Positions 2,953 through 63,211 of a stretch of DNA of 64,000 nucleotides are shown in pieces (positions within the stretch are counted from its first letter, which is position 1; the number at the start of each line of letters is the position of its first letter). The stretch is from a virus (taxonomy: Duplodnaviria > Caudoviricetes), in the IMG/VR virus record IMGVR_UViG_3300028888_000047, positions 253,465 through 317,464 of that record; one strand, given 5' to 3'. The translations under genes and the position numbers were made by a program. The notes beneath the pieces are model-generated. The model saw nothing but the letters and a program-made list of their open reading frames with translations, did not search any database and had not been told where the DNA came from.

Positions 2953-3918
2953 TTAGGTAATTATAAATTCTATTTCTTCTACGCCACCTTTTTCAGCGTC
3001 ATGATATTCGGTTTCTGTTAAAATTAGTTTAACTGTTGTCGGTTTTTCTTGTAACTTAAAAGAAACACCATTTAAATCTTTGCTTATAATTTCTGCCCCA
3101 ATTAAAGTAGAATCAAATGTACTATATACGTATAATGTTTTTATTTTATTACCACATTTTGATTTTTCAAACCAATTTGTGCAACTTACATAAGAAAGTT
3201 TTATATAATATACGTCTTCTCCAATAGTACTTGATGATGCTGTAAATGAACAGCTGCCTCCAGAACATGATAAGTTGTTAGAACTTGGTGTTAATGTACA
3301 CGATTTTGAGGATGATGATACTTTTGTAACTTCCAAATCTTCAATATGGTCAAATTGAGTTTCTGTATAACTTGTTATTTCTTGAACTGAAGTTACAGTC
3401 AATACTCCATTTTTTCCTTCTGAAGAATCAAAGGTAGCGTCTAAATAATTGCCTTTTACAATAATTGTATAAGTGTTATTGGCTTGAAACTTTGTATTTA
3501 CTTTAGGCTCTACCATTTTATAATCACTTTCTTTCAAAGGTATTATTCCCACTTCAGCACCATTTTCATCGTATTTTTTCAAATATACATTTAATGATTG
3601 AATAAGTTTATCATAAGAAATATCACATTCTGACATTTGCACATCGTCAACCCAAAGTTCATATGTATATTTTGTTTTATCTTGTTTTAAACAAACAACG
3701 TCATACAAATCAGTTCCCTTTTGCCTAAAAATGGCGTGGCCGTTTCTAGGTGAAAAATATATATTTTCATCTGCTATTATTTTTATATATTGTCTATTAT
3801 CATCCAATGTTTCACAAGATTTTCCATCTTGAGAAACGGTTACCCCGGGCTGATTTTTGTCAAAATAAGCCCAAGGAGCATCATATATTATAGCGTTCCA
3901 ACCTAGTCTTTCTTCCAT
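2953..3918 (-). CDS. BACON-containing tail-associated protein
   Basis: PW...IKIIADEN...RNGHAIFRQ...VCLKQ (BACON-like); beta-rich; Cys-containing. Confidence 0.5.
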   Translation of the reverse strand: MEERLGWNAIIYDAPWAYFDKNQPGVTVSQDGKSCETLDDNRQYIKIIADENIYFSPRNGHAIFRQKGTDLYDVVCLKQDKTKYTYELWVDDVQMSECDISYDKLIQSLNVYLKKYDENGAEVGIIPLKESDYKMVEPKVNTKFQANNTYTIIVKGNYLDATFDSSEGKNGVLTVTSVQEITSYTETQFDHIEDLEVTKVSSSSKSCTLTPSSNNLSCSGGSCSFTASSSTIGEDVYYIKLSYVSCTNWFEKSKCGNKIKTLYVYSTFDSTLIGAEIISKDLNGVSFKLQEKPTTVKLILTETEYHDAEKGGVEEIEFIIT

Positions 3919-29145: not shown

Positions 29146-30309
29146 TTATGTTATTTTTTTAGCATATTCTTTTTCTTTTAAAATAATGCGCTCGTAAGGA
29201 CCAAGTAAATTGCCAAATTTTGACTCTTCTAACATATCCGTCATTTCATTTTCATAAATGATTTCATATATATTCTTAACATCCCTATCTTCAATATTCA
29301 TTGGGGCATATAACTCTTCTTTTAAGCCTTCCAAAGCTTCATCGGTTAATAATGGTTCTGACAAATCTATGATTTTTTTATTTATTTCATAAATGTCTTT
29401 GCCCTGTATGCCATCTGTAACGCGATTAACGATATTTTCAAGCGATTTGAGAGGCTTTTTTTTATCAGCCTTTCTCTCTTCCAACAAAGACTTGGAACGT
29501 TCTACAACGGCTTTTAATGACGTTTTTTCATTTTTCATTTCGGGAAACAATTTTAATAATGTTTGCTCGCCTAAGCCCTTTATTCCTTTTATGTTATCAG
29601 AAGCATCACCGCATAATATTTTTTTAACTAAAACATTTTCGTGAGTTATTCCAAGCTCTTCAACTGAATTCTTTGGTGTTATAAACTTTTTTAACGTCGG
29701 TATATATTGGCAAACCTCGTCATTTATTAACTGTGTTAAATCTCTATCGCCACTTACAATTACAACCCTTTCATTTGGCTTCTTATTTTTAACATAATAA
29801 GCAATAAGGTCATCACCTTCAACATCATCGTATATAAATTGTCTTATGAAGAGATTTTCAAGAATATCTTGTATTATTCCTCTTTGTCTTTGAAATGATT
29901 CATCATCAGTTTCAATTCGTTTAACTTCATATTTTTTGTTCTTACTATTTTTCAAAATATTTTTTACAAAATTATTTATTTTTTTATCATAATCAGAAAC
30001 GCCGGATGTTAATTCATAATGCTTATCTCTGTTTGCCTTATAATCCTTATAATAATTCCACCTGAGACTTCCTGAATTGAAGCCATCCCAACAAACTATA
30101 CAAAAATCAAAATCCTTTTTCTGTAATATTTGCCCCAATATTCTCAAGAATAAAAATATTGCTCCATATTCTTGACCCTTTGAATTCATTCTCTTATCAA
30201 CCAATGACATCTTTAGTAATGAATTGCCATCTACACATAATGTATAAATTAATTTTTCATTGCTAACATTGTTTGCTTCTGCTCTATTCTTTTTAACTAC
30301 TTGTTTCAT
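29146..30309 (-). CDS. rnh: 5'-3' exonuclease / T4 RNase H-like flap endonuclease
   Basis: VDGNSL, WDG, YKANR, VEGDDLIA, SGDRDLTQL and GDASDNIKGIKGLG (helix-3-turn-helix). Confidence 0.92.
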   Translation of the reverse strand: MKQVVKKNRAEANNVSNEKLIYTLCVDGNSLLKMSLVDKRMNSKGQEYGAIFLFLRILGQILQKKDFDFCIVCWDGFNSGSLRWNYYKDYKANRDKHYELTSGVSDYDKKINNFVKNILKNSKNKKYEVKRIETDDESFQRQRGIIQDILENLFIRQFIYDDVEGDDLIAYYVKNKKPNERVVIVSGDRDLTQLINDEVCQYIPTLKKFITPKNSVEELGITHENVLVKKILCGDASDNIKGIKGLGEQTLLKLFPEMKNEKTSLKAVVERSKSLLEERKADKKKPLKSLENIVNRVTDGIQGKDIYEINKKIIDLSEPLLTDEALEGLKEELYAPMNIEDRDVKNIYEIIYENEMTDMLEESKFGNLLGPYERIILKEKEYAKKIT

Positions 30310-30566
30310 TTAAATTTATATGTTTTTTCCGGTGTTATAATTTCCCAATACCAATCAATATTAGGGTCATACTTATAATTTGGCTTTGCGTCATAATATA
30401 CCTTTTTTAACTCTCTATACAATACCAACGCTGCATCCTCTGGAGTGTATGCTATAGTTTTTATTGCTTCCCATTCTCTGAAGGTAAGTTCTTTTCTTAC
30501 AAAAAAACTTTTTTTCTCTATTCCTACTTTAGAATAATCGTATATCTCATATTTGTATTTACCCAT
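30306..30566 (-). CDS. Small hypothetical protein (N-terminus paralogous to the upstream gene)
   Basis: Start set at MGKYKYEIYDYSK (ATG 30566), overlapping the upstream stop codon. Confidence 0.6.
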   Translation of the reverse strand: MGKYKYEIYDYSKVGIEKKSFFVRKELTFREWEAIKTIAYTPEDAALVLYRELKKVYYDAKPNYKYDPNIDWYWEIITPEKTYKFK

Positions 30567-30837
30567 TGTTATAAACATTTAAAAAATCTTCTCTATTGCT
30601 AACATATGTTGGAGTATATATTGGGCCTGTATATGTTGACAAACTTGTTAATATACTTCTATCAAGTTCTACCGCAATTTGTTCAGAAAGAATTGCTGTT
30701 AATTCGCCTTCAACGGAAATATTGTTAAATGCTGTAATATCATTAGCTAATTCAGTTGACCATACTACTTTACACACCTTTGGCTTACATATTTCAATTT
30801 TTGAATAATCGTAACTTTCAAATTTATACTTTCCCAT
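30559..30837 (-). CDS. Small protein containing a T4 gp23 major-capsid-like fragment
   Basis: WSTELANDITAFNNISVEGELTAILSEQIAVELDRSIL matches the conserved gp23 segment (W/Y-x-x-ELAQD...D-x-E-x-EL-x-x-IL-x-x-x-I-x-x-EI-x-R). Confidence 0.75.
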   Translation of the reverse strand: MGKYKFESYDYSKIEICKPKVCKVVWSTELANDITAFNNISVEGELTAILSEQIAVELDRSILTSLSTYTGPIYTPTYVSNREDFLNVYNNG

Positions 30838-31207
30838 AATTTACAACTTTTACATTTAACCCTTTTTCTTCTGCAATTTTAATCATATGCTCAGTTCCAT
30901 GAGAACTTCCATCCCAAAAAGCAATTAAGCCATCAGCAAGTTCTGCCATTTGTTCATTCCTTCTAAATCCAGCTGATTTTCCATGCTTTTTCCAATCAGC
31001 AGGATAAACTTCCAAGTCCAAATCTTCATCAGAAGCATATTTCTCACCCAATTGGTCAGCACCACGTGCTCCACCACTAACAATAATAACGTTATGTGTT
31101 TTTTTCTTTTCTCGTAGAACTTTATTACAAGTCTCTTTTAATAACTTATAATTGCTAAACCCTCTTGAACCTGCAATAATAACCTTAAAATTTTCTTTTT
31201 TACCCAT
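30824..31207 (-). CDS. SLOG-family protein (YspA/DUF2493-like)
   Basis: VIIAGSR, IVSGGARGAD, ADWKKHGKSAGFRRNEQMA and AFWDGSSHGT. Confidence 0.88.
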   Translation of the reverse strand: MGKKENFKVIIAGSRGFSNYKLLKETCNKVLREKKKTHNVIIVSGGARGADQLGEKYASDEDLDLEVYPADWKKHGKSAGFRRNEQMAELADGLIAFWDGSSHGTEHMIKIAEEKGLNVKVVNYGKV

Positions 31208-31222
31208 AAAATTGCATTTTTA

Positions 31223-31254
31223 CAAATATACAAAAAAATGTTAAAAAAAACAAA
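31223..31254 (-). promoter_or_regulatory. Bacteroidota sigma-A-type promoter (TTTG-N20-TATATTTG)
   Basis: Both elements are present; drives the SLOG / capsid-fragment / rnh unit. Confidence 0.8.
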
Positions 31255-31310
31255 AAAAAGAGGCAAGAAAAAATCTAACCTCTTATTAAAAAATATTTGT
31301 AAAAAATAAA

Positions 31311-32474
31311 TTACCTTACCATTATTCCACTATAAGGCATGGCCTTCATTTTGAGAACGTTCATAAGACTTTCGTTCATATCAGCCTGATTCTTCATTTG
31401 ATTCCAAGGCAACATTCGGTCTAATCGTTCTTTTAACTCGCCCAACACAGCTTCCTTTTCCTGTTTTCCTTGGTCTAACAACATTGAATAATCAAGTTGC
31501 ATTTCAGCTTCAGGTATCTTAACCACTCCGCTTGCATAACCTCTAATATTGCCAAGCAATATCTTCGCCTCAGCTATTAATAAACGTCTTACAATCTGCT
31601 GCGTTGGATAATTAAGCAATTCATAATGCATCTTGCTCAAAGGAACTTGGTCAGGCGTGATTAACAATGTGTCCTTGTTGTCAAGCATACATTGCTCAGT
31701 TGCATCGTTTTCACCGGTGGAAACATCGTAGTAGGTATACCAACAAATACAGTTAATGTATCTACCCCATCCATAAGCATCGTCTGCTGACAATCCTCCA
31801 AGCATATTTTTAGAACCAGGAGTAGACATAAGGTGTACAAGGTGTGTTCCATTTGGCCCAGCTGTTACCTTATAAGCCAAATCGCCTCTTAGAAGTGAGT
31901 TTTTATATTTAAGGTCAGCAGCAAGTAATGCTGTATCATAAGCAGAGCCAACATAGAATCCAATTAAACCCATACCATTCTGATATGTTCCATACTGTCC
32001 CCAACCACCTCCAATACCTGTATCAAGCATTCCTACGTTTCCATATAATGCTGCTTTTGTGGTTGAAGGGGTAATATACATTACTCTGTTTATTTCTCTA
32101 CCTGCAGGAATTACGTACACTTGTTTTCCTTTTTCAATGGTAAAAAAGTCTTTTTTAAGCTCCCACCTTGTTCCGCGTTGCTGAAGACCAACTTCTTTAG
32201 AAAACCACTCTGACCAATCACGTGACCAATCAAGTGTCCTTGTGCTTAACGCAAATGCAAGGTCTGCCGGGTTGTCTATTAATTGGTTTTTACCCATCAT
32301 ATTAAGCCATTGGGATTCGATTACCCAATTTTGCACATATGAAGCATAATCGCCAACACACATTTCAAGAAGGTCGCATAGTTGTTCATCTTCTAACTGA
32401 ACCGGACGAATTGGCGCTCCGCAGCTTGTACGAACTTTCCTAAACAAGTCTTTTATTTCATCTGTTACTATCAT
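31311..32474 (-). CDS. Neck/head-tail connector protein (T4 gp13-like)
   Basis: GAPIRPVQLEDEQL at the N-terminus, and AEAKILLGNIRG...IPEAEMQLDYSMLLDQGKQEKEAV at the C-terminus. Confidence 0.8.
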   Translation of the reverse strand: MIVTDEIKDLFRKVRTSCGAPIRPVQLEDEQLCDLLEMCVGDYASYVQNWVIESQWLNMMGKNQLIDNPADLAFALSTRTLDWSRDWSEWFSKEVGLQQRGTRWELKKDFFTIEKGKQVYVIPAGREINRVMYITPSTTKAALYGNVGMLDTGIGGGWGQYGTYQNGMGLIGFYVGSAYDTALLAADLKYKNSLLRGDLAYKVTAGPNGTHLVHLMSTPGSKNMLGGLSADDAYGWGRYINCICWYTYYDVSTGENDATEQCMLDNKDTLLITPDQVPLSKMHYELLNYPTQQIVRRLLIAEAKILLGNIRGYASGVVKIPEAEMQLDYSMLLDQGKQEKEAVLGELKERLDRMLPWNQMKNQADMNESLMNVLKMKAMPYSGIMVR

Positions 32475-32525: not shown

Positions 32526-33344
32526 ATGAAAGGTATAATATTAAATGAATCTATTATAAAAAAGGCTTTACGTGAGTCCATTAATGAAATGATGGATGAG
32601 GATAGGATTGAAAATCAGGATGGGACTGTTGAGGTTGATAATTTTGAAGCATTAAAAGAGATAATAAAGTTTGAAAATCCAGGAGATACATTATATTTTA
32701 TACAGATAAAGAAAAGAGATAAGGATAATCCCGGACAACATTCAAAATTCCAAGCAGCAATGCACTTGAAGGAATATTATATTAAATCTCTTCAGGAATT
32801 TGATGCAGCAGAACCAGAAATAAAGGACATTTGCAAGCGTGAAAGTGCTCGCGCTTATATATGGCTTAATGCAAGGTCTAAAGCCATTGTGGATAGGTAC
32901 ACTCAACGAAATATGGATTATTGGAAACGTCATCCTCGTGAAGGCTACAAATACGGCTGGAAGGCTCAAGCTCTTGCTGCTGCCAAAAGTCTTGATATAG
33001 ATGATAGACCTTTATGTTTTGTTGACGTAGATTCTGATGACCAAAATGATATAAATATGGCCATGCAAATCATACAAAGAGCAGGAATTAAGCCGTTATA
33101 TGCTTATAGAAGTTTAAATAATGGAATTCATATAATATTACCAAATAAAGAAGATGCAAAGAAACTTGATTTTTCGCCCATTAACGGTAACTTACAAGGT
33201 ATGGGAAGAAAGGTTCAAATGAACGCAAAGGTTGGTATCGAAATTGATAAACCCGCTTTGCTTTATGCGTGCCTTGTTCCACAGGGATATGGAAAACAAC
33301 AAGCAAGATTCGCAAAATTCACAGGACAAAATAAAAAACCATAA
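32526..33344 (+). CDS. AEP (archaeo-eukaryotic primase/PrimPol)-like protein with a putative capsid-targeting leader
   Basis: hhhDxD (LCFVDVD) and S-x-x-x-G-x-H-hh (SLNNGIHII) resemble AEP motifs I and II; leader ILNES...LRESINE. Confidence 0.55.
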   Translation: MKGIILNESIIKKALRESINEMMDEDRIENQDGTVEVDNFEALKEIIKFENPGDTLYFIQIKKRDKDNPGQHSKFQAAMHLKEYYIKSLQEFDAAEPEIKDICKRESARAYIWLNARSKAIVDRYTQRNMDYWKRHPREGYKYGWKAQALAAAKSLDIDDRPLCFVDVDSDDQNDINMAMQIIQRAGIKPLYAYRSLNNGIHIILPNKEDAKKLDFSPINGNLQGMGRKVQMNAKVGIEIDKPALLYACLVPQGYGKQQARFAKFTGQNKKP

Positions 33345-33347
33345 GTT

Positions 33348-34055
33348 ATGAAAAAGATAATATTAAACGAGAATTCTTTTAAGCTTTTCAAGAAGTTTTT
33401 GGTTAATGAAATAGTATTACCTAAAGGCGTTTCTTTTTGTACCAACCCAAAGGATGAAATATTTTATAAAACTTGTTTAAAAAAATTAGATAACATACCT
33501 AATTTAAGAACAGATAAATATAAGGACTACGACCTTGAAAATGCTTATAATGAGTGGGCTAAAACAGGTTTTTCAAAAGATTCTTTTGAATATAGAACAT
33601 GGTGTGGCTTATTAAAAAACTACATGGATTACCTAAGCACAAGTATCAATTTTGTTAAATTCAATAAGGTTGATAGAATTGGTGATGCAAGAGCACATTA
33701 TGTTTTTGTTGACCCAAAATGGGTGGAAAAAATGAATGATGGAAAAGAAGACTATCAAGGCATATTTTCTTTAACATTAAAAATATATCAAAACAAGGTA
33801 ATATGGAATGATTTATTTTTTAATCCAATATTTGAAACTTTAAAAAACGAAATTAAAGAGATAAGAAAATTTGCAACGATAAAAAGAAAATTGGATAAAA
33901 AATACGATTTACTATTGCCTTTGGAAGAATATATCGAAATAGGTAAATTCATGTCAGACGAAAATAACGCAAAACCTGAACTGTTTTATGATAATAACAC
34001 TAATTATTCCCAGGATTTAACCGTAAATAACGATGAATTTAACTGGGGCGGATAA
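33348..34055 (+). CDS. Hypothetical, putative internal head protein
   Basis: Leader MKKIILNEN...LVNE; C-terminus DEFNWGG. Confidence 0.5.
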   Translation: MKKIILNENSFKLFKKFLVNEIVLPKGVSFCTNPKDEIFYKTCLKKLDNIPNLRTDKYKDYDLENAYNEWAKTGFSKDSFEYRTWCGLLKNYMDYLSTSINFVKFNKVDRIGDARAHYVFVDPKWVEKMNDGKEDYQGIFSLTLKIYQNKVIWNDLFFNPIFETLKNEIKEIRKFATIKRKLDKKYDLLLPLEEYIEIGKFMSDENNAKPELFYDNNTNYSQDLTVNNDEFNWGG

Positions 34056-34069
34056 ACAACAATAAATAA

Positions 34070-35629
34070 ATGGCTAAATTATTAAAATTTGGAGTAGGAT
34101 ATATACCAAAGAAGGTTTTTAAAAATAATAAAACTGGTGAAAAAGAAGAAAAAAGCTGCGTAAGTCTTGCCTTATTTTCAGATTTAAGGTCAGGTGCTGC
34201 TGCATTTCCTCAAATACAAAGTTTTATGAGGGATAACGCGACATTGGATAAAAAAGATGGCACTATATTCATTACCATACCTGAAGATAAGTTTGAAATC
34301 TTTGCAAAGGGTAAATTATTGGAAAGAATTTTATCAACATTTGAACAAACCACAGGATATGTTGCTGATTCTAAAGACATTTCAGAATTGGTTCAAAGAT
34401 TTAACATTGCCAAGGACGAGGTTTTAAACTCTAATAAATCAGATTTAGACGCTATTACAAGCCAATATCTTGAAGACCTTATATCAGGAATAGAAAGGGA
34501 CTTTAATGACCCAAGATTCCAACAAATTATGAACTCAATTCATACGTTCTCTTATAGTAGTATGGGCGGCGGAATAAACAATGTTCAAGGTTCATATAAT
34601 GATAGTGACGTGGTGCTTAAAGAAACCAAACTATCGGTTGAAAATGTTATTAGAGTACTTTCACAATGGCATAAAGCAGGAAGACCTGGTATTCCTACAT
34701 ATCTTGCAACAGAAAATCAATGGCATAGATATTTCAACGGTACTGTTAAACAAGATGCGTTGAAGTTATATGTCGTTAGACCTGATAAAGTAAATGGAGT
34801 ATCTACAAATACTGTTACAAGACAATTAGGAATTGACCCAAATTCTGCCACGTCAGGAGGCGCAATAGGTAGAGGTGTTAATTCAATAGCAAGAGGCGGT
34901 GGTATGGATAAATGGCGTGGAACACAAGAAGCATATGCAATGACTTGTTATTACGACATATCTGACGTTGATGGCGTTGACCCAAATCTTTTAACCGGTA
35001 ATACAGCAAATTATTATGACCCAAATACAGTTACAGCAGATACAACAGATGCTGACACAGGCGATATTGTAACTCAAGACGCACAGCAAAACGATATAGT
35101 CAATGATAATCAACCAATGACAGAAGATTTGCTTAGAAAGAAGCTTTTGAAATATGCCGCTGATAATAAAATAGATGGTATACAATTAGCCATTCAAAGA
35201 GACGGCACAATTGGTGGTCTTGTTTTCATGATTAATCACTTAAAAGCTGTATTCCGTAATCGTAATGCAGAAGAAAAGAAAGCTACAGCTGAACAAATAT
35301 TATTCGTTGTTTTGAAACACTATAATATATTTGAAGATGAGATTAATCAGCTTTATAAGAAGTTTATTTCCAAACTTAGAACGCCAAAAGGAAAGGTTAA
35401 TGAGAAATTAATATATGATATTTGGTCATTCGCGTATGATATTATTTCAAAACTTGATTCAATCAATGAAGAACAAGGAGGTTCATTAACATTAATGGAT
35501 GTCATTGGCTATCTTGGATTTACTGTTGATGAATTTAAAAGAATGCCAAAAACAGAGGAAGAAGCTAATATGATGATGAATGGCGTCAGAGAATCTTTTA
35601 TAAAAACATTTAATAAGTTGTTAATTTAG
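34070..35629 (+). CDS. Protein with an ArdC-N-like ssDNA-binding (antirestriction-type) domain
   Basis: LSVENVIRVLSQ...PTYLATENQWHRYFNGTVKQDALKLYVVRP...YYDISDV follows the ArdC-N pattern (S-x-x-N...Q...T-x-x-QW...V-K...P...F/YDIS). Confidence 0.6.
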   Translation: MAKLLKFGVGYIPKKVFKNNKTGEKEEKSCVSLALFSDLRSGAAAFPQIQSFMRDNATLDKKDGTIFITIPEDKFEIFAKGKLLERILSTFEQTTGYVADSKDISELVQRFNIAKDEVLNSNKSDLDAITSQYLEDLISGIERDFNDPRFQQIMNSIHTFSYSSMGGGINNVQGSYNDSDVVLKETKLSVENVIRVLSQWHKAGRPGIPTYLATENQWHRYFNGTVKQDALKLYVVRPDKVNGVSTNTVTRQLGIDPNSATSGGAIGRGVNSIARGGGMDKWRGTQEAYAMTCYYDISDVDGVDPNLLTGNTANYYDPNTVTADTTDADTGDIVTQDAQQNDIVNDNQPMTEDLLRKKLLKYAADNKIDGIQLAIQRDGTIGGLVFMINHLKAVFRNRNAEEKKATAEQILFVVLKHYNIFEDEINQLYKKFISKLRTPKGKVNEKLIYDIWSFAYDIISKLDSINEEQGGSLTLMDVIGYLGFTVDEFKRMPKTEEEANMMMNGVRESFIKTFNKLLI

Positions 35630-35631
35630 GC

Positions 35632-36801
35632 ATGGATAAAAATATATTATTAAAAGCGTTGGAAAAACAAAAATTGACTGAAGAAATCGTAAATAGGGAT
35701 GAAATATATGTTTATCACTGCGCAAAATACGAAACACTTCAATCAATAGGAGAAGTTGGCTTTGAAAGATATTTCACAGCTGGCGGTGTTGGTAATGCTT
35801 ATGGCCCAGGTATATATTCAACATTTGATTTGGATAGCAGCATAGTTAATGCCAAAAGAGCTGAATATGGAAATGTAATTCTAAAATGCAGAATTAAATC
35901 TTTAAGAAATTTCCTTATATACACACCAGATGTTGCAAAACAAATATATGGAAGAAGTGACGTTGATTTTCAATTAAGAAAAATCCTTAATCCCGATGAT
36001 TATAAAAAATTAAAAGCAGAAGGAAGAACGCCCAACACAAGGTTTTGGATGGTTGGTGATAATATTTATAAACTAATTATAAATGACCCTTCACTTGGCA
36101 TTCAATATACATCTTATTGCTGCCATGCTGCTGACTGGTACGGAGGAAAAAATCCTTCATTTGATAATTCAATTGATGGTTTTATATTTAAAGGTCCACA
36201 TGATGGATATGTTTGCATTATCAGAGACTTTAAGATTGTGTATCCCGTTGAAATCAGCTTTAGTGTTAGAAATGGGGAATATTATAGAACCGGTGAGGTT
36301 AAATTTGAACCATTTAAAACACATGAGTTCTTTGAGGACTTTGCCAAAAATGATGTTGACTTGGTAAGACAATTGAAAAAATTAAATATGCTGAACCAAT
36401 TTGACACATATACTTGTCCAAAATGCGGTGGTGATGGGCATACTTGTAATGGTTCTTATTGTGCAGCTTGTTTTGGAACGGGACAGAAACATAAAGTACC
36501 TGAATATTTTTCAAACAACTTTGCAAGAGTTGAAATTGGCGGAAAATATAATTATCTGTATAGAAAGAATTATACGCATGGAGTTATTTCTCCGGTCGGA
36601 TTCGATGAAGCGCCATTAACATTTGATAAAAATAATCAAGCGTTGGTTAAATATAACGGGCAAAACCTAATTATTAAATTAACAGAACCGCCAATAAGAT
36701 TTTCAGTGTATACACCCGAAGGAGAATATCTATGCAATCTAAAACAACTTGATACATACTTTAATGAAATTGAAAGCGATGATGACTTTGATTGGGGTTA
36801 A
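35632..36801 (+). CDS. PARP-like (H-Y clade) ADP-ribosyltransferase with a DnaJ-type Zn finger and a WG-repeat-like segment
   Basis: YVYHC, GNAYGPGIYST and YGNVILKC; CPKCGGDG...CAACFGTG; FSNNFARVEIGGKYNYL; C-terminus DDDFDWG. Confidence 0.65.
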   Translation: MDKNILLKALEKQKLTEEIVNRDEIYVYHCAKYETLQSIGEVGFERYFTAGGVGNAYGPGIYSTFDLDSSIVNAKRAEYGNVILKCRIKSLRNFLIYTPDVAKQIYGRSDVDFQLRKILNPDDYKKLKAEGRTPNTRFWMVGDNIYKLIINDPSLGIQYTSYCCHAADWYGGKNPSFDNSIDGFIFKGPHDGYVCIIRDFKIVYPVEISFSVRNGEYYRTGEVKFEPFKTHEFFEDFAKNDVDLVRQLKKLNMLNQFDTYTCPKCGGDGHTCNGSYCAACFGTGQKHKVPEYFSNNFARVEIGGKYNYLYRKNYTHGVISPVGFDEAPLTFDKNNQALVKYNGQNLIIKLTEPPIRFSVYTPEGEYLCNLKQLDTYFNEIESDDDFDWG

Positions 36802-62722: not shown

Positions 62723-63211
62723 ATGTCAGATTTACTTTTGAAAATGCCACTTAACTACGAACCGTTAAGGAAAAATAGATGGCTATTTAGATTCCCGGCA
62801 GATTTGGGAATACAAGAATGGTGGTTATCTTCAGCTTCTCGTCCTTCAATCACGCAGGAAGAGACACAGATACCATTCTTAAACACATCAACTTGGGTTG
62901 TAGGTCGTTATACATGGGATACAATTCAGGTTACACTTCGTGACCCAATTGGTCCATCCGCATCACAAGCTGTTATGGAATGGGTTCGTTTACATTCTGA
63001 ATCAGTTACCGGAAGACAAGGCTATGCGGCAGGTTATAAGCGTGATGTTGAGCTTGAAATGCTTGACCCAACAGGTGTAGTTGTATCAAAATGGATTCTT
63101 AAAAACTGTATGCTTACAACCGTTAACTTTGGAGACCTTGATTACCAAAGCTCTGACCTTGCGACCATACAACTTACTTTGAGATTTGACTATGCAGTAT
63201 TGGCGTATTAA
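62723..63211 (+). CDS. Tail tube protein (T4 gp19-like)
   Basis: YEPLRKNRWLFRF, SASRPSI, GRYTWDTIQVTLRDPI, GYKRDVELEMLDPTGVVVSKW and FGDLDY; ATATTTATT upstream at 62680-62688. Confidence 0.9.
   Translation: MSDLLLKMPLNYEPLRKNRWLFRFPADLGIQEWWLSSASRPSITQEETQIPFLNTSTWVVGRYTWDTIQVTLRDPIGPSASQAVMEWVRLHSESVTGRQGYAAGYKRDVELEMLDPTGVVVSKWILKNCMLTTVNFGDLDYQSSDLATIQLTLRFDYAVLAY

What the first reader, a model, noticed from the sequence alone, without database searches (positions are those of the whole stretch)
30559..30837. Stand-alone major-capsid fragment expressed from an early promoter: candidate immune decoy or assembly modulator
Seen: a 92-aa intact ORF, translationally coupled at both ends, whose core is the most conserved gp23 segment (WSTELAND...ELTAILSEQIAVELDRSIL). 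It lies among replication genes behind a host-sigma promoter, far from head genes. Known: several defence systems are triggered by major capsid protein (Lit via the gp23 Gol peptide, CapRel, PifA). Inference: an early mini-capsid mimic could occupy such sensors before real capsid is made, or poison capsids of competing phages.
Basis: partly seen in the sequence, partly recalled or inferred. Interest (0 to 1): 0.75.

Follow-up and report, generated by a model that had tools for sequence, protein, structure and literature searches.

The report
Stand-alone capsid-fragment mini-protein in jumbo phage
A rumen jumbo phage keeps, under selection, a 92-residue gene made from one conserved piece of a T4-type head-shell protein; similar uncatalogued "mini-capsid" genes occur in other uncultured phages, and what they do (most likely tune or interfere with head-shell assembly) is untested.

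Summary
Window 30559-30837 (minus strand) is an intact 92-aa ORF that overlaps both neighbours. It passes Pfam's Gp23 cut-off, and residues 12-70 align to T4 gp23 residues 257-319. That stretch is the E-loop return strand, the short acidic P-domain helix that holds the head-size residue Ala275, and the spine helix. It is not the Gol peptide.

It is a real gene. About 20 homologues of 64-101 aa keep the same synteny, with dN/dS about 0.32 (0.12 in the N-terminal tag, 0.22 in the helix). A conserved terminator followed by a Bacteroides-type promoter (TTTG-N20-TATATTTG) heads the operon.

New findings:
- The next ORF is a diverged paralogue that shares the N-terminal tag.
- The tag is itself derived from the capsid protein.
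- Other uncultured T4-like phages carry small ORFs, each a shared tag plus a capsid-protein segment. Two have such an array between the portal and prohead-protease genes, where T4 has core genes 67 and 68.
- The 317-kb record holds no full gp23-type capsid gene, but it is truncated.

My best reading is a P-domain mimic that modulates shell assembly (confidence about 0.35). Immune decoy, rival-phage poison and an unrelated exapted function remain open.

The parts
30559..30837 (-). ORF A, 92 aa: a mini-protein derived from a capsid-protein segment (the finding itself)
   Evidence: Family alignment A1. dN/dS 0.32.
30790..30837 (-). N-terminal tag of A (residues 1-16, MGKYKFESYDYSKIEI). It is shared with ORF B and is the most constrained part.
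   Evidence: Invariant columns. Omega 0.12. Only two copies in the genome. In a related mini-protein the equivalent tag aligns to the capsid-protein strand 'YSSLEFE' just before the E-loop return strand.
30628..30789 (-). Capsid-like core of A (residues 17-70): hairpin strand, short acidic helix (STELANDITAF) and spine helix (ELTAILSEQIAVELDRSIL)
   Evidence: Aligns to T4 gp23 257-319. About 60% identical to capsid proteins of rumen jumbo phages. Helix omega 0.22. AF2 predicts a helix at 40-68, but the model is low-confidence.
30562..30627 (-). C-terminal tail of A (residues 71-92, with the conserved EDFLNxYNN end)
   Evidence: Conserved in family A1. tblastn alignments to cyanophage capsid proteins run through residue 92.
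30306..30566 (-). ORF B, 86 aa (90 aa from the alternative ATG at 30578): a diverged tandem paralogue of A with the same N-terminal tag
   Evidence: A natural hybrid, P0178, joins the N-half of A to the C-half of B. AF2 pLDDT 84, with a strand, short helix, long helix and hairpin.
30824..31207 (-). SLOG/YAcAr-domain gene, first gene of the operon, overlapping A's start
   Evidence: Pfam YAcAr 1.5e-16. PHROG 289.
31223..31254 (-). Bacteroides-type promoter match: -33 TTTG (31251-31254), 20 nt spacer, -7 TATATTTG (31223-31230), ending 15 nt before the SLOG ATG
   Evidence: The same boxes and spacing occur in L113, L121 (the -7 box only), L125 and L126.
31258..31284 (-). Terminator-like hairpin (AAGAGG...CCTCTT followed by a T-run) after the gp13-like gene
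   Evidence: The stem sequence differs between loci but still pairs (win, L113, L121, L125). The simple terminator scan did not call it.
29146..30309 (-). 5'-3' exonuclease (RNase H/FEN type) downstream in the same operon
   Evidence: Pfam 5_3_exonuc_N 4.4e-28.
31311..32474 (-). T4 gp13-like neck (head-completion) protein, immediately upstream of the terminator and promoter
   Evidence: Precomputed Pfam Phage_T4_gp13 (weak). Weak PHROG 211 match.

Best explanation
ORF A is a domesticated piece of a T4-type (gp23-like, HK97-fold) major capsid protein. It holds the base of the E-loop hairpin, the short acidic P-domain helix and the spine helix, behind a short N-terminal tag that also comes from the capsid protein. 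It is translated as an independent small protein together with its diverged paralogue B.

Most likely it mimics the P-domain or E-loop edge of a capsid subunit. By binding unassembled or assembling capsid protein, or the scaffold surface that this edge normally meets, it would modulate shell assembly. That could mean holding subunits, setting inter-capsomer geometry or setting head size.

Shown: the homology, the independent conserved ORF, purifying selection, operon structure, the promoter match, and related mini-ORFs in head-gene modules of other phages.

Inferred: that it binds capsid protein or scaffold, and that it affects assembly.
For: (1) Homology to exactly the gp23 block 257-319. In T4 this block contains Ala275, where a single substitution gives about 80% isometric heads. 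It lies in the short negatively charged P-domain helix that contacts the adjacent capsomer (PMC9958956).

(2) The spine helix is kept almost as in real capsid proteins: 16 of 20 residues match the capsid protein of a co-occurring rumen jumbo phage. Paralogue B has drifted, so A stays under a capsid-like constraint.

(3) Homologous mini-proteins P0036 and P0067 (hhalign E 2e-20) lie between the portal and prohead-protease genes, upstream of the scaffold gene; in L202 the full capsid gene follows (L201 ends after the scaffold gene). T4 encodes the prohead-core, size-determining proteins gp67 and gp68 at that position (PMC9026906).

(4) Neighbouring mini-ORFs there carry other capsid-protein segments behind the same tag, with z 8.7-10.5. 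Together they cover the elements of a P-domain.

(5) It is a real gene. About 20 homologues share its synteny and omega is 0.32.

(6) The gene upstream is a gp13-like neck protein.
Against: - In this phage clade the gene sits with replication and nucleotide-metabolism genes behind a host-type promoter, not in a head module.
- A and B evolve 2-3 times faster than their neighbours. The mini-ORFs in the head modules have omega 0.4-0.7, against 0.055 for the protease. That pattern also fits a conflict gene.
- The AF2 monomer model is poor, pLDDT 55.7.
- T4 gp67 and gp68 are not homologous.
- The phage's own capsid protein is not in the record, so no cognate partner could be examined.
- Some family members lack the short acidic helix.
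Confidence: 0.35

Rival explanations
1. Exapted small domain with a job unrelated to capsids. An old capsid-gene fragment was recruited as a small alpha/beta protein. Together with paralogue B it serves the SLOG protein, the 5'-3' exonuclease or the replisome, for instance as an adaptor or regulator.
For: - Conserved placement between the SLOG gene and the exonuclease, with overlapping starts and stops.
- B has lost all capsid likeness yet is kept and folds confidently, pLDDT 84.
- Other stand-alone mini-ORFs lie next to helicase and methyltransferase genes.
Against: - A's spine helix stays close to the capsid-protein consensus in distant phages. That is unexpected if the partner were not capsid-related.
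- Homologues sit in head modules.
- B's model has no significant structural neighbour that would point to such a role.
Confidence: 0.2
2. Anti-defence mimic. Made early, A occupies or desensitises a host sensor that recognises the conserved capsid segment, before the real capsid protein appears.
For: - Early-type promoter.
- Faster evolution than neighbours, as in conflict genes.
- Many defence systems sense capsid proteins (PMC13728456).
- Other mini-proteins are strings of the most conserved capsid motifs, some in non-native order. This suggests selection on motifs, not on the whole fold.
Against: - The segment is not the Gol block.
- Known capsid sensors are activated by binding their ligand, so an early mimic should trigger them (established for Gol/Lit, PMC3014915).
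- I found no capsid-fragment decoy in a November 2026 review of phage countermeasures.
- No defence gene or host was available to test.
- Homologues in late head modules would be co-expressed with the capsid protein.
Confidence: 0.17
3. Weapon against rival phages. A is a dominant-negative capsid fragment that poisons the shells of related T4-like jumbo phages co-infecting the same cell.
For: - A's core is 57-64% identical to capsid proteins of other rumen jumbo phages.
- One of these (a 334.7-kb contig) is in the same metagenome, 3300032030, as a contig that encodes the identical ORF A.
- Early expression fits exclusion.
- The assembled 317 kb holds no gp23-type capsid gene that A could harm.
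Against: - The record is truncated, and it has T4-type neck, tube and baseplate genes. Its own capsid protein is therefore probably gp23-like and would be poisoned too.
- Phage L202 carries a mini-ORF and its own matching capsid gene side by side.
Confidence: 0.12
4. Non-functional relic of a capsid gene duplication, or a gene-calling artefact.
For: It is short, partially homologous, and no function is known.
Against: - Intact in about 20 homologues down to about 50% identity, with conserved length, start, stop overlaps and synteny.
- Omega is 0.32 overall and 0.12 in the tag, with dS near 1.
Confidence: 0.03

Closest known systems
T4 gp23 major capsid protein (Pfam PF07068; PDB 5VF3, 6UZC, 7VS5)
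   Same: Clear sequence homology over gp23 residues 257-319: the E-loop return strand, the short acidic P-domain helix and the spine helix.
   Different: A has 92 residues, against 521 in T4 gp23 and 571-685 in the full-length relatives examined here. It has no N-arm, insertion domain, A-domain or C-terminal P-domain strands. It is a separate gene in a non-head operon.
T4 prohead-core proteins gp67 and gp68 (head-size determination)
   Same: Small proteins. Homologues of A (P0036, P0067) occupy the same slot between the portal and prohead-protease genes. The proposed role in shell geometry is similar.
   Different: No sequence homology (hhalign probability 0.2%). In this window A is not in a head module. 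Incorporation into a core and cleavage are untested.
T4 Gol peptide / Lit protease
   Same: A short stretch of gp23 acts as a stand-alone signal to a host system.
   Different: Gol lies in the first quarter of gp23 (PMC3014915), whereas A matches 257-319. Gol activates the defence and does not block it.
Capsid-protein paralogues and satellite capsid remodellers (T4 gp24 vertex protein; SaPIbov5 Ccm; SaPI CpmB; P4 Sid). From my own knowledge, not tested here.
   Same: Extra proteins, some homologous to capsid proteins, that change how the major capsid protein assembles.
   Different: gp24 and Ccm are full HK97-fold proteins. CpmB and Sid are not capsid-derived. None is a tagged fragment of under 100 residues.
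Protein-mimic anti-defence factors (e.g. DSAD1 against the tail-tube sensor DSR2). From my own knowledge.
   Same: A phage protein that engages a sensor of a structural protein.
   Different: These are not fragments of the sensed protein. No sensor is known here.

Membership tests
Pfam PF07068 Gp23 (T4-type major capsid protein) | Match to the family profile above the gathering score | tested here: met
   31.7 bits against 24.4, but only profile positions 151-198 of 376.
Pfam PF07068 Gp23 (T4-type major capsid protein) | Complete HK97 fold: N-arm, E-loop, P-domain and A-domain, in a protein of several hundred residues (521 in T4 gp23; 571-685 in the relatives examined here) | tested here: not met
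   92 aa. Nothing in the ORF or elsewhere in the genome matches the C-terminal half of related capsid proteins.
Pfam PF07068 Gp23 (T4-type major capsid protein) | Encoded in the head-morphogenesis module with protease and scaffold | tested here: not met
   Flanked by a SLOG gene and a 5'-3' exonuclease, with DnaB and NrdD downstream.
T4 Gol peptide (Lit activator) | Corresponds to the 29-residue conserved block in the first quarter of gp23 | tested here: not met
   Aligns to gp23 257-319. Gol position taken from PMC3014915.
T4 prohead-core proteins gp67/gp68 | Sequence homology to gp67 or gp68 | tested here: not met
   hhalign of A1 against gp68: probability 0.2%. gp67 is an acidic 80-mer that looks unlike A by eye; it was not aligned.
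T4 prohead-core proteins gp67/gp68 | Gene located between the portal (gp20) and prohead protease (gp21) genes | tested here: not met
   Not met for this ORF. Met for its homologues P0036 and P0067 in L201 and L202.
T4 prohead-core proteins gp67/gp68 | Incorporated into the prohead core and cleaved by the prohead protease | not testable with these tools
   Needs proteomics of proheads.
Anti-defence decoy or mimic | Binds a host immune sensor and blocks its activation | not testable with these tools
   Host and sensor are unknown.
Tagged mini-capsid-segment ORFs (class proposed here) | Small ORF made of a lineage-specific N-terminal tag, shared with neighbouring small ORFs, plus one or more conserved capsid-protein segments | tested here: met
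   A and B share the tag. A's body is capsid-like (z 24). The same design is seen in L201, L202 and L206.

The most novel reading that the evidence does not exclude
A is one member of a widespread, undescribed class of phage 'mini-capsid' proteins. Each is a short lineage-specific tag followed by one or several of the most conserved linear blocks of the T4-type capsid protein, sometimes in shuffled order and often in tandem arrays. They would act as molecular mimics of unassembled capsid protein, either to blunt capsid-sensing host immunity or to sabotage the capsids of competing phages.
Probability: 0.25. Interest if true: 0.85.

Novelty: new variant of a known kind. Interest (0 to 1): 0.62.

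Why it matters
Major capsid proteins are the commonest trigger of bacterial anti-phage sensors, and they set head size. A conserved, separately expressed copy of the segment that includes T4's head-size residue would be a new kind of assembly or conflict factor.

The same design (tag plus capsid segment) recurs in several uncultured phage lineages. It was not seen as a second copy in any of the 672 GenBank phage records that match. This points to an overlooked gene class that could be tested in T4 itself.

Tried and rejected
- **Stop-codon recoding.** A's stops are all TAA, and reading through stops in six frames gave no longer capsid gene.
- **Split capsid gene.** Three ORFs match three successive capsid-protein parts: genome 211345-211860, 174580-175692 and A. 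No C-terminal half exists, and L202 has mini-ORFs beside a full capsid gene, so I rejected this.
- **Hunt for the phage's own capsid gene.**
  - Pfam Gp23, PHROG 138, T4 portal, S77 protease and Terminase_6C searches of the genome gave no full capsid, portal, protease or terminase gene; the Gp23 and PHROG 138 searches matched only ORF A.
  - Thirty ORFs scanned against PHROGs gave tail and replication genes only.
  - Walking off the record's start reached a ClpB-like gene syntenic with G004.
  - Another assembly also breaks about 0.8 kb after the gp19-like tube gene near the record's far end.
  - An exact-word scan of IMG/VR found no extension.
- **Complex prediction of A with B.** No verdict, score 0.09. 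This is no evidence either way.
- **AF2 model of A.** pLDDT 55.7, too poor for a fold search.
- **Fold searches with B's model.** Foldseek against the PDB found nothing at E <= 0.001. The best VIA-align Z was 4.5, within noise.
- **Homing-endonuclease-linked partial duplication.** No endonuclease gene is adjacent, and the ORF is conserved and selected.
- **Mini-ORFs in 160 kb of G001 and G004.** None found.

Full report
**1. The observation**

Window 30559-30837 on the minus strand is a 92-aa ORF, ATG to TAA.
- Its start overlaps the stop of the upstream gene (30824-31207) by 14 nt.
- Its stop overlaps the ATG at 30566 of the next ORF by 8 nt.
- The in-frame stops upstream are TAA.
- Pfam Gp23 matches residues 23-70 at 31.7 bits, above the curated 24.4. 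PHROG 138, major head protein, matches at 1.9e-7.

A profile of the family against PDB sequences hits T4 gp23 at E 6e-7, with residues 12-70 aligned to gp23 257-319.
- In T4 this stretch is the strand RQLKAAYS, the short helix IELAQDLRAV, and the long helix ELSGILATEIMLEINREVV.
[quoted passage not shown] It reports that A275T gives about 80% isometric heads (PMC9958956).
- Gol, the Lit activator, lies in the first quarter of gp23 (PMC3014915). The ORF is therefore not a Gol mimic.

**2. It is a gene, not a relic**
- The word-indexed search found 15 homologues of 64-101 aa at 49-87% identity.
- The exhaustive search added more, among 308 hits at E <= 0.001.
- The alignment (A1) has three conserved parts: an invariant N-terminal tag (M.K.K.E.YDYS), a nearly invariant helix (ELTAILSEQIA.E.DR.IL) and a conserved end (EDFLN.YNN).
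- Seven family genes give dN/dS of 0.20-0.45 among the divergent pairs (the two near-identical pairs, dS 0.13-0.29, gave 0.75 and 0.27).
- Pooled omega is 0.32: 0.12 in the tag, 0.22 in the helix, and about 0.47 elsewhere, with dS near 1.
- A evolves 2-3 times faster in dN than the flanking gp13-like, SLOG, exonuclease and 249-aa genes.

**3. Context**

The order is conserved in all longer loci: gp13-like neck protein, sometimes an extra gene, SLOG/YAcAr gene, A, B, 5'-3' exonuclease, small ORFs, DnaB helicase, NrdD.

Two features lie between the gp13-like gene and the SLOG gene.
- The first is a hairpin followed by a T-run. Its stem differs between loci but still pairs.
- The second is TTTG, 19-20 nt, then TATATTTG, ending 14-17 nt before the ATG. 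This matches the Bacteroides -33/-7 consensus, which I cite from my own knowledge.
- These are consensus matches, not proof of early expression.

**4. The neighbour is a paralogue**
- ORF B (30306-30566) starts with the same tag.
- Its family (A2) keeps the tag.
- AF2 folds B confidently (pLDDT 84) as a strand, short helix, long helix and hairpin. That is the same element order as A's capsid-like core.
- A natural hybrid, P0178, has the N-half of A fused to the C-half of B at the start of the long helix. This indicates that the two are homologous there.
- B has no detectable capsid similarity (z 0.5) and no significant structural neighbour.

**5. The genome and its capsid gene**

The window is the last 64 kb of a 317,464-bp IMG/VR record rated 95% complete and 'linear'.
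- A is the only Gp23 or PHROG 138 match.
- A profile built from 26 full-length relatives, run against all ORFs and against six frames with stops read through, finds only A and a 171-aa ORF at genome 211345-211860. The 171-aa ORF resembles the capsid N-terminus.
- BLAST adds a 370-aa ORF at 174580-175692 that shares the capsid insertion domain.
- No T4-type portal or S77 protease is present.

The record is truncated, so absence of a capsid gene is not established.
- It begins inside a lysozyme-like gene whose 5' part is not at the other end.
- Other contigs extend past the start into a ClpB-like gene, in synteny with G004 at 204-209 kb.
- An independent assembly also breaks about 0.8 kb after the gp19-like tube gene.
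- G004's portal and a weak terminase-like match lie in the stretch that has no counterpart in G000.
- With T4-type neck, tube and baseplate genes present, a gp23-type capsid gene in the missing roughly 17 kb is the most economical guess.

**6. Relatives of the core**

Full capsid proteins of 620-685 aa in rumen jumbo phages (G001, G004, G005 and others) are 48-64% identical to A over residues 1/20-66.
- G004's helix, ELTAILSEQIAAEIDREIL, differs from A's at 3 of 19 positions in that stretch.
- A G004-like contig and a contig encoding the identical ORF A occur in the same metagenome, 3300032030.
- All 672 GenBank phage records that match have a single matching place, which in every listed record lies in a full-length gene (nearly all annotated as capsid or head protein). 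Cultured phages therefore show no stand-alone copy at this sensitivity.

**7. A wider class**

Many small hits are not truncated capsid genes.
- Of the 84 hits under 200 aa, 49 have more than 30% of their length outside any capsid-profile match. Nearly all of these start with Met.
- P0036 (141 aa) and P0067 (118 aa) are homologous to A (hhalign E 2e-20).
- They lie in T4-like head modules, between the portal and prohead-protease genes, with the scaffold gene downstream; the full capsid gene follows in L202, whereas L201 ends after the scaffold gene.

That slot holds 5-6 small ORFs which all begin with a common tag (..FDSIEY..). Several of them carry different capsid-protein segments.

| Mini-ORF | Capsid-protein residues matched | z |
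|---|---|---|
| L201 5001 | 314-387 | 31 |
| L202 5001 | 330-388 | 29 |
| L201 4703 | 411-522 | 10.5 |
| L202 5361 | 510-557 | 8.7 |
| L201 4127 | 73-108 | 8.9 |

- In the L201 alignment the tag itself aligns to the capsid strand YSSLEFE just before the E-loop return strand.
- A third contig, L206, has another array with a different tag (IPKPITYRQWK). One of its ORFs strings together N-terminal and C-terminal capsid motifs in non-native order (z 20).
- Other mosaics appear among the representative hits.
- Some stand-alone copies sit next to helicase or methyltransferase genes.
- The L201 and L202 mini-ORFs are 36-44% identical with omega 0.4-0.7. The adjacent protease is 89% identical with omega 0.055.
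- T4 has gp67 and gp68 at the same position. These are prohead-core proteins implicated in head-size determination (PMC9026906), but they are not homologous to A.

**8. Interpretation**

Solid points:
- A is capsid-derived.
- It is independently encoded and selected.
- It is tagged and paired with a paralogue.
- It is part of a recurrent design in uncultured T4-like phages.

The function is inferred. I favour a P-domain or E-loop mimic acting on shell assembly, at about 0.35. The reasons are the capsid-like constraint on the helix, the T4 head-size residue in the matched block, and the head-module position of homologues.

The early-type operon and fast evolution keep three rivals alive: an exapted non-capsid role (0.20), an immune mimic (0.17) and a rival-phage poison (0.12). 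A neutral relic is very unlikely (0.03).

I found no description of such proteins in the literature searches or in the scan's earlier notes.

Noticed in passing
G000:C1:211345-211860 (-), outside the window: A 171-aa ORF whose residues 33-115 resemble the N-terminal block of gp23-type capsid proteins (KW..G(F/L)L.G ... FPI.RRV; z 11.4). It belongs to a conserved family of 160-188 aa, with 46 clusters, found in contigs up to 412 kb. It partly overlaps the block that contains T4's Gol region.
   Followed up: partly
G000:C1:174580-175692 (-), outside the window: A 370-aa ORF whose residues about 180-335 are 27-32% identical to the insertion domain of rumen jumbo-phage capsid proteins (E 1e-13 to 2e-15).
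   Followed up: partly
L201:3709-5426 and L202:3605-5588: Arrays of small ORFs between the portal and prohead-protease genes. Five to six of them start with ..FDSI(E/D)Y.., and several carry different capsid-protein segments. They evolve much faster than the flanking head genes.
   Followed up: partly
L206:1741-3423: Another array, with a different shared tag (IPKP(I/K)TY(R/H)xWK). The ORF at 3010-3423 is a mosaic of N-terminal and C-terminal capsid motifs in non-native order, with an internal second tag.
   Followed up: partly
P0020, P0039, P0042, P0052, P0065, P0082, P0092, P0095: Small proteins made of two or more conserved capsid-protein blocks, with the insertion and A-domains missing. 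Some are in permuted order, and one has two spine-helix blocks.
   Followed up: no
window 64000 (record end) and G000:C1:1-188: The record starts inside a lysozyme/SLT-like gene. An independent assembly breaks at the same point, about 0.8 kb after the gp19-like tube gene (window 62723-63211). The missing stretch is syntenic with the G004 region that holds ClpB, terminase and portal.
   Followed up: partly
window 32526-36801 (+): Three genes of the four-gene plus-strand cassette next to the gp13-like gene have homologues 6-17 kb from the capsid gene in the distant jumbo phage G004 (201-212 kb against 218 kb). This is a trace of shared neighbourhood.
   Followed up: no
window 31258-31284 (-): A terminator-like hairpin whose stem changes between related loci while staying paired. 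The simple terminator scan missed it.
   Followed up: partly
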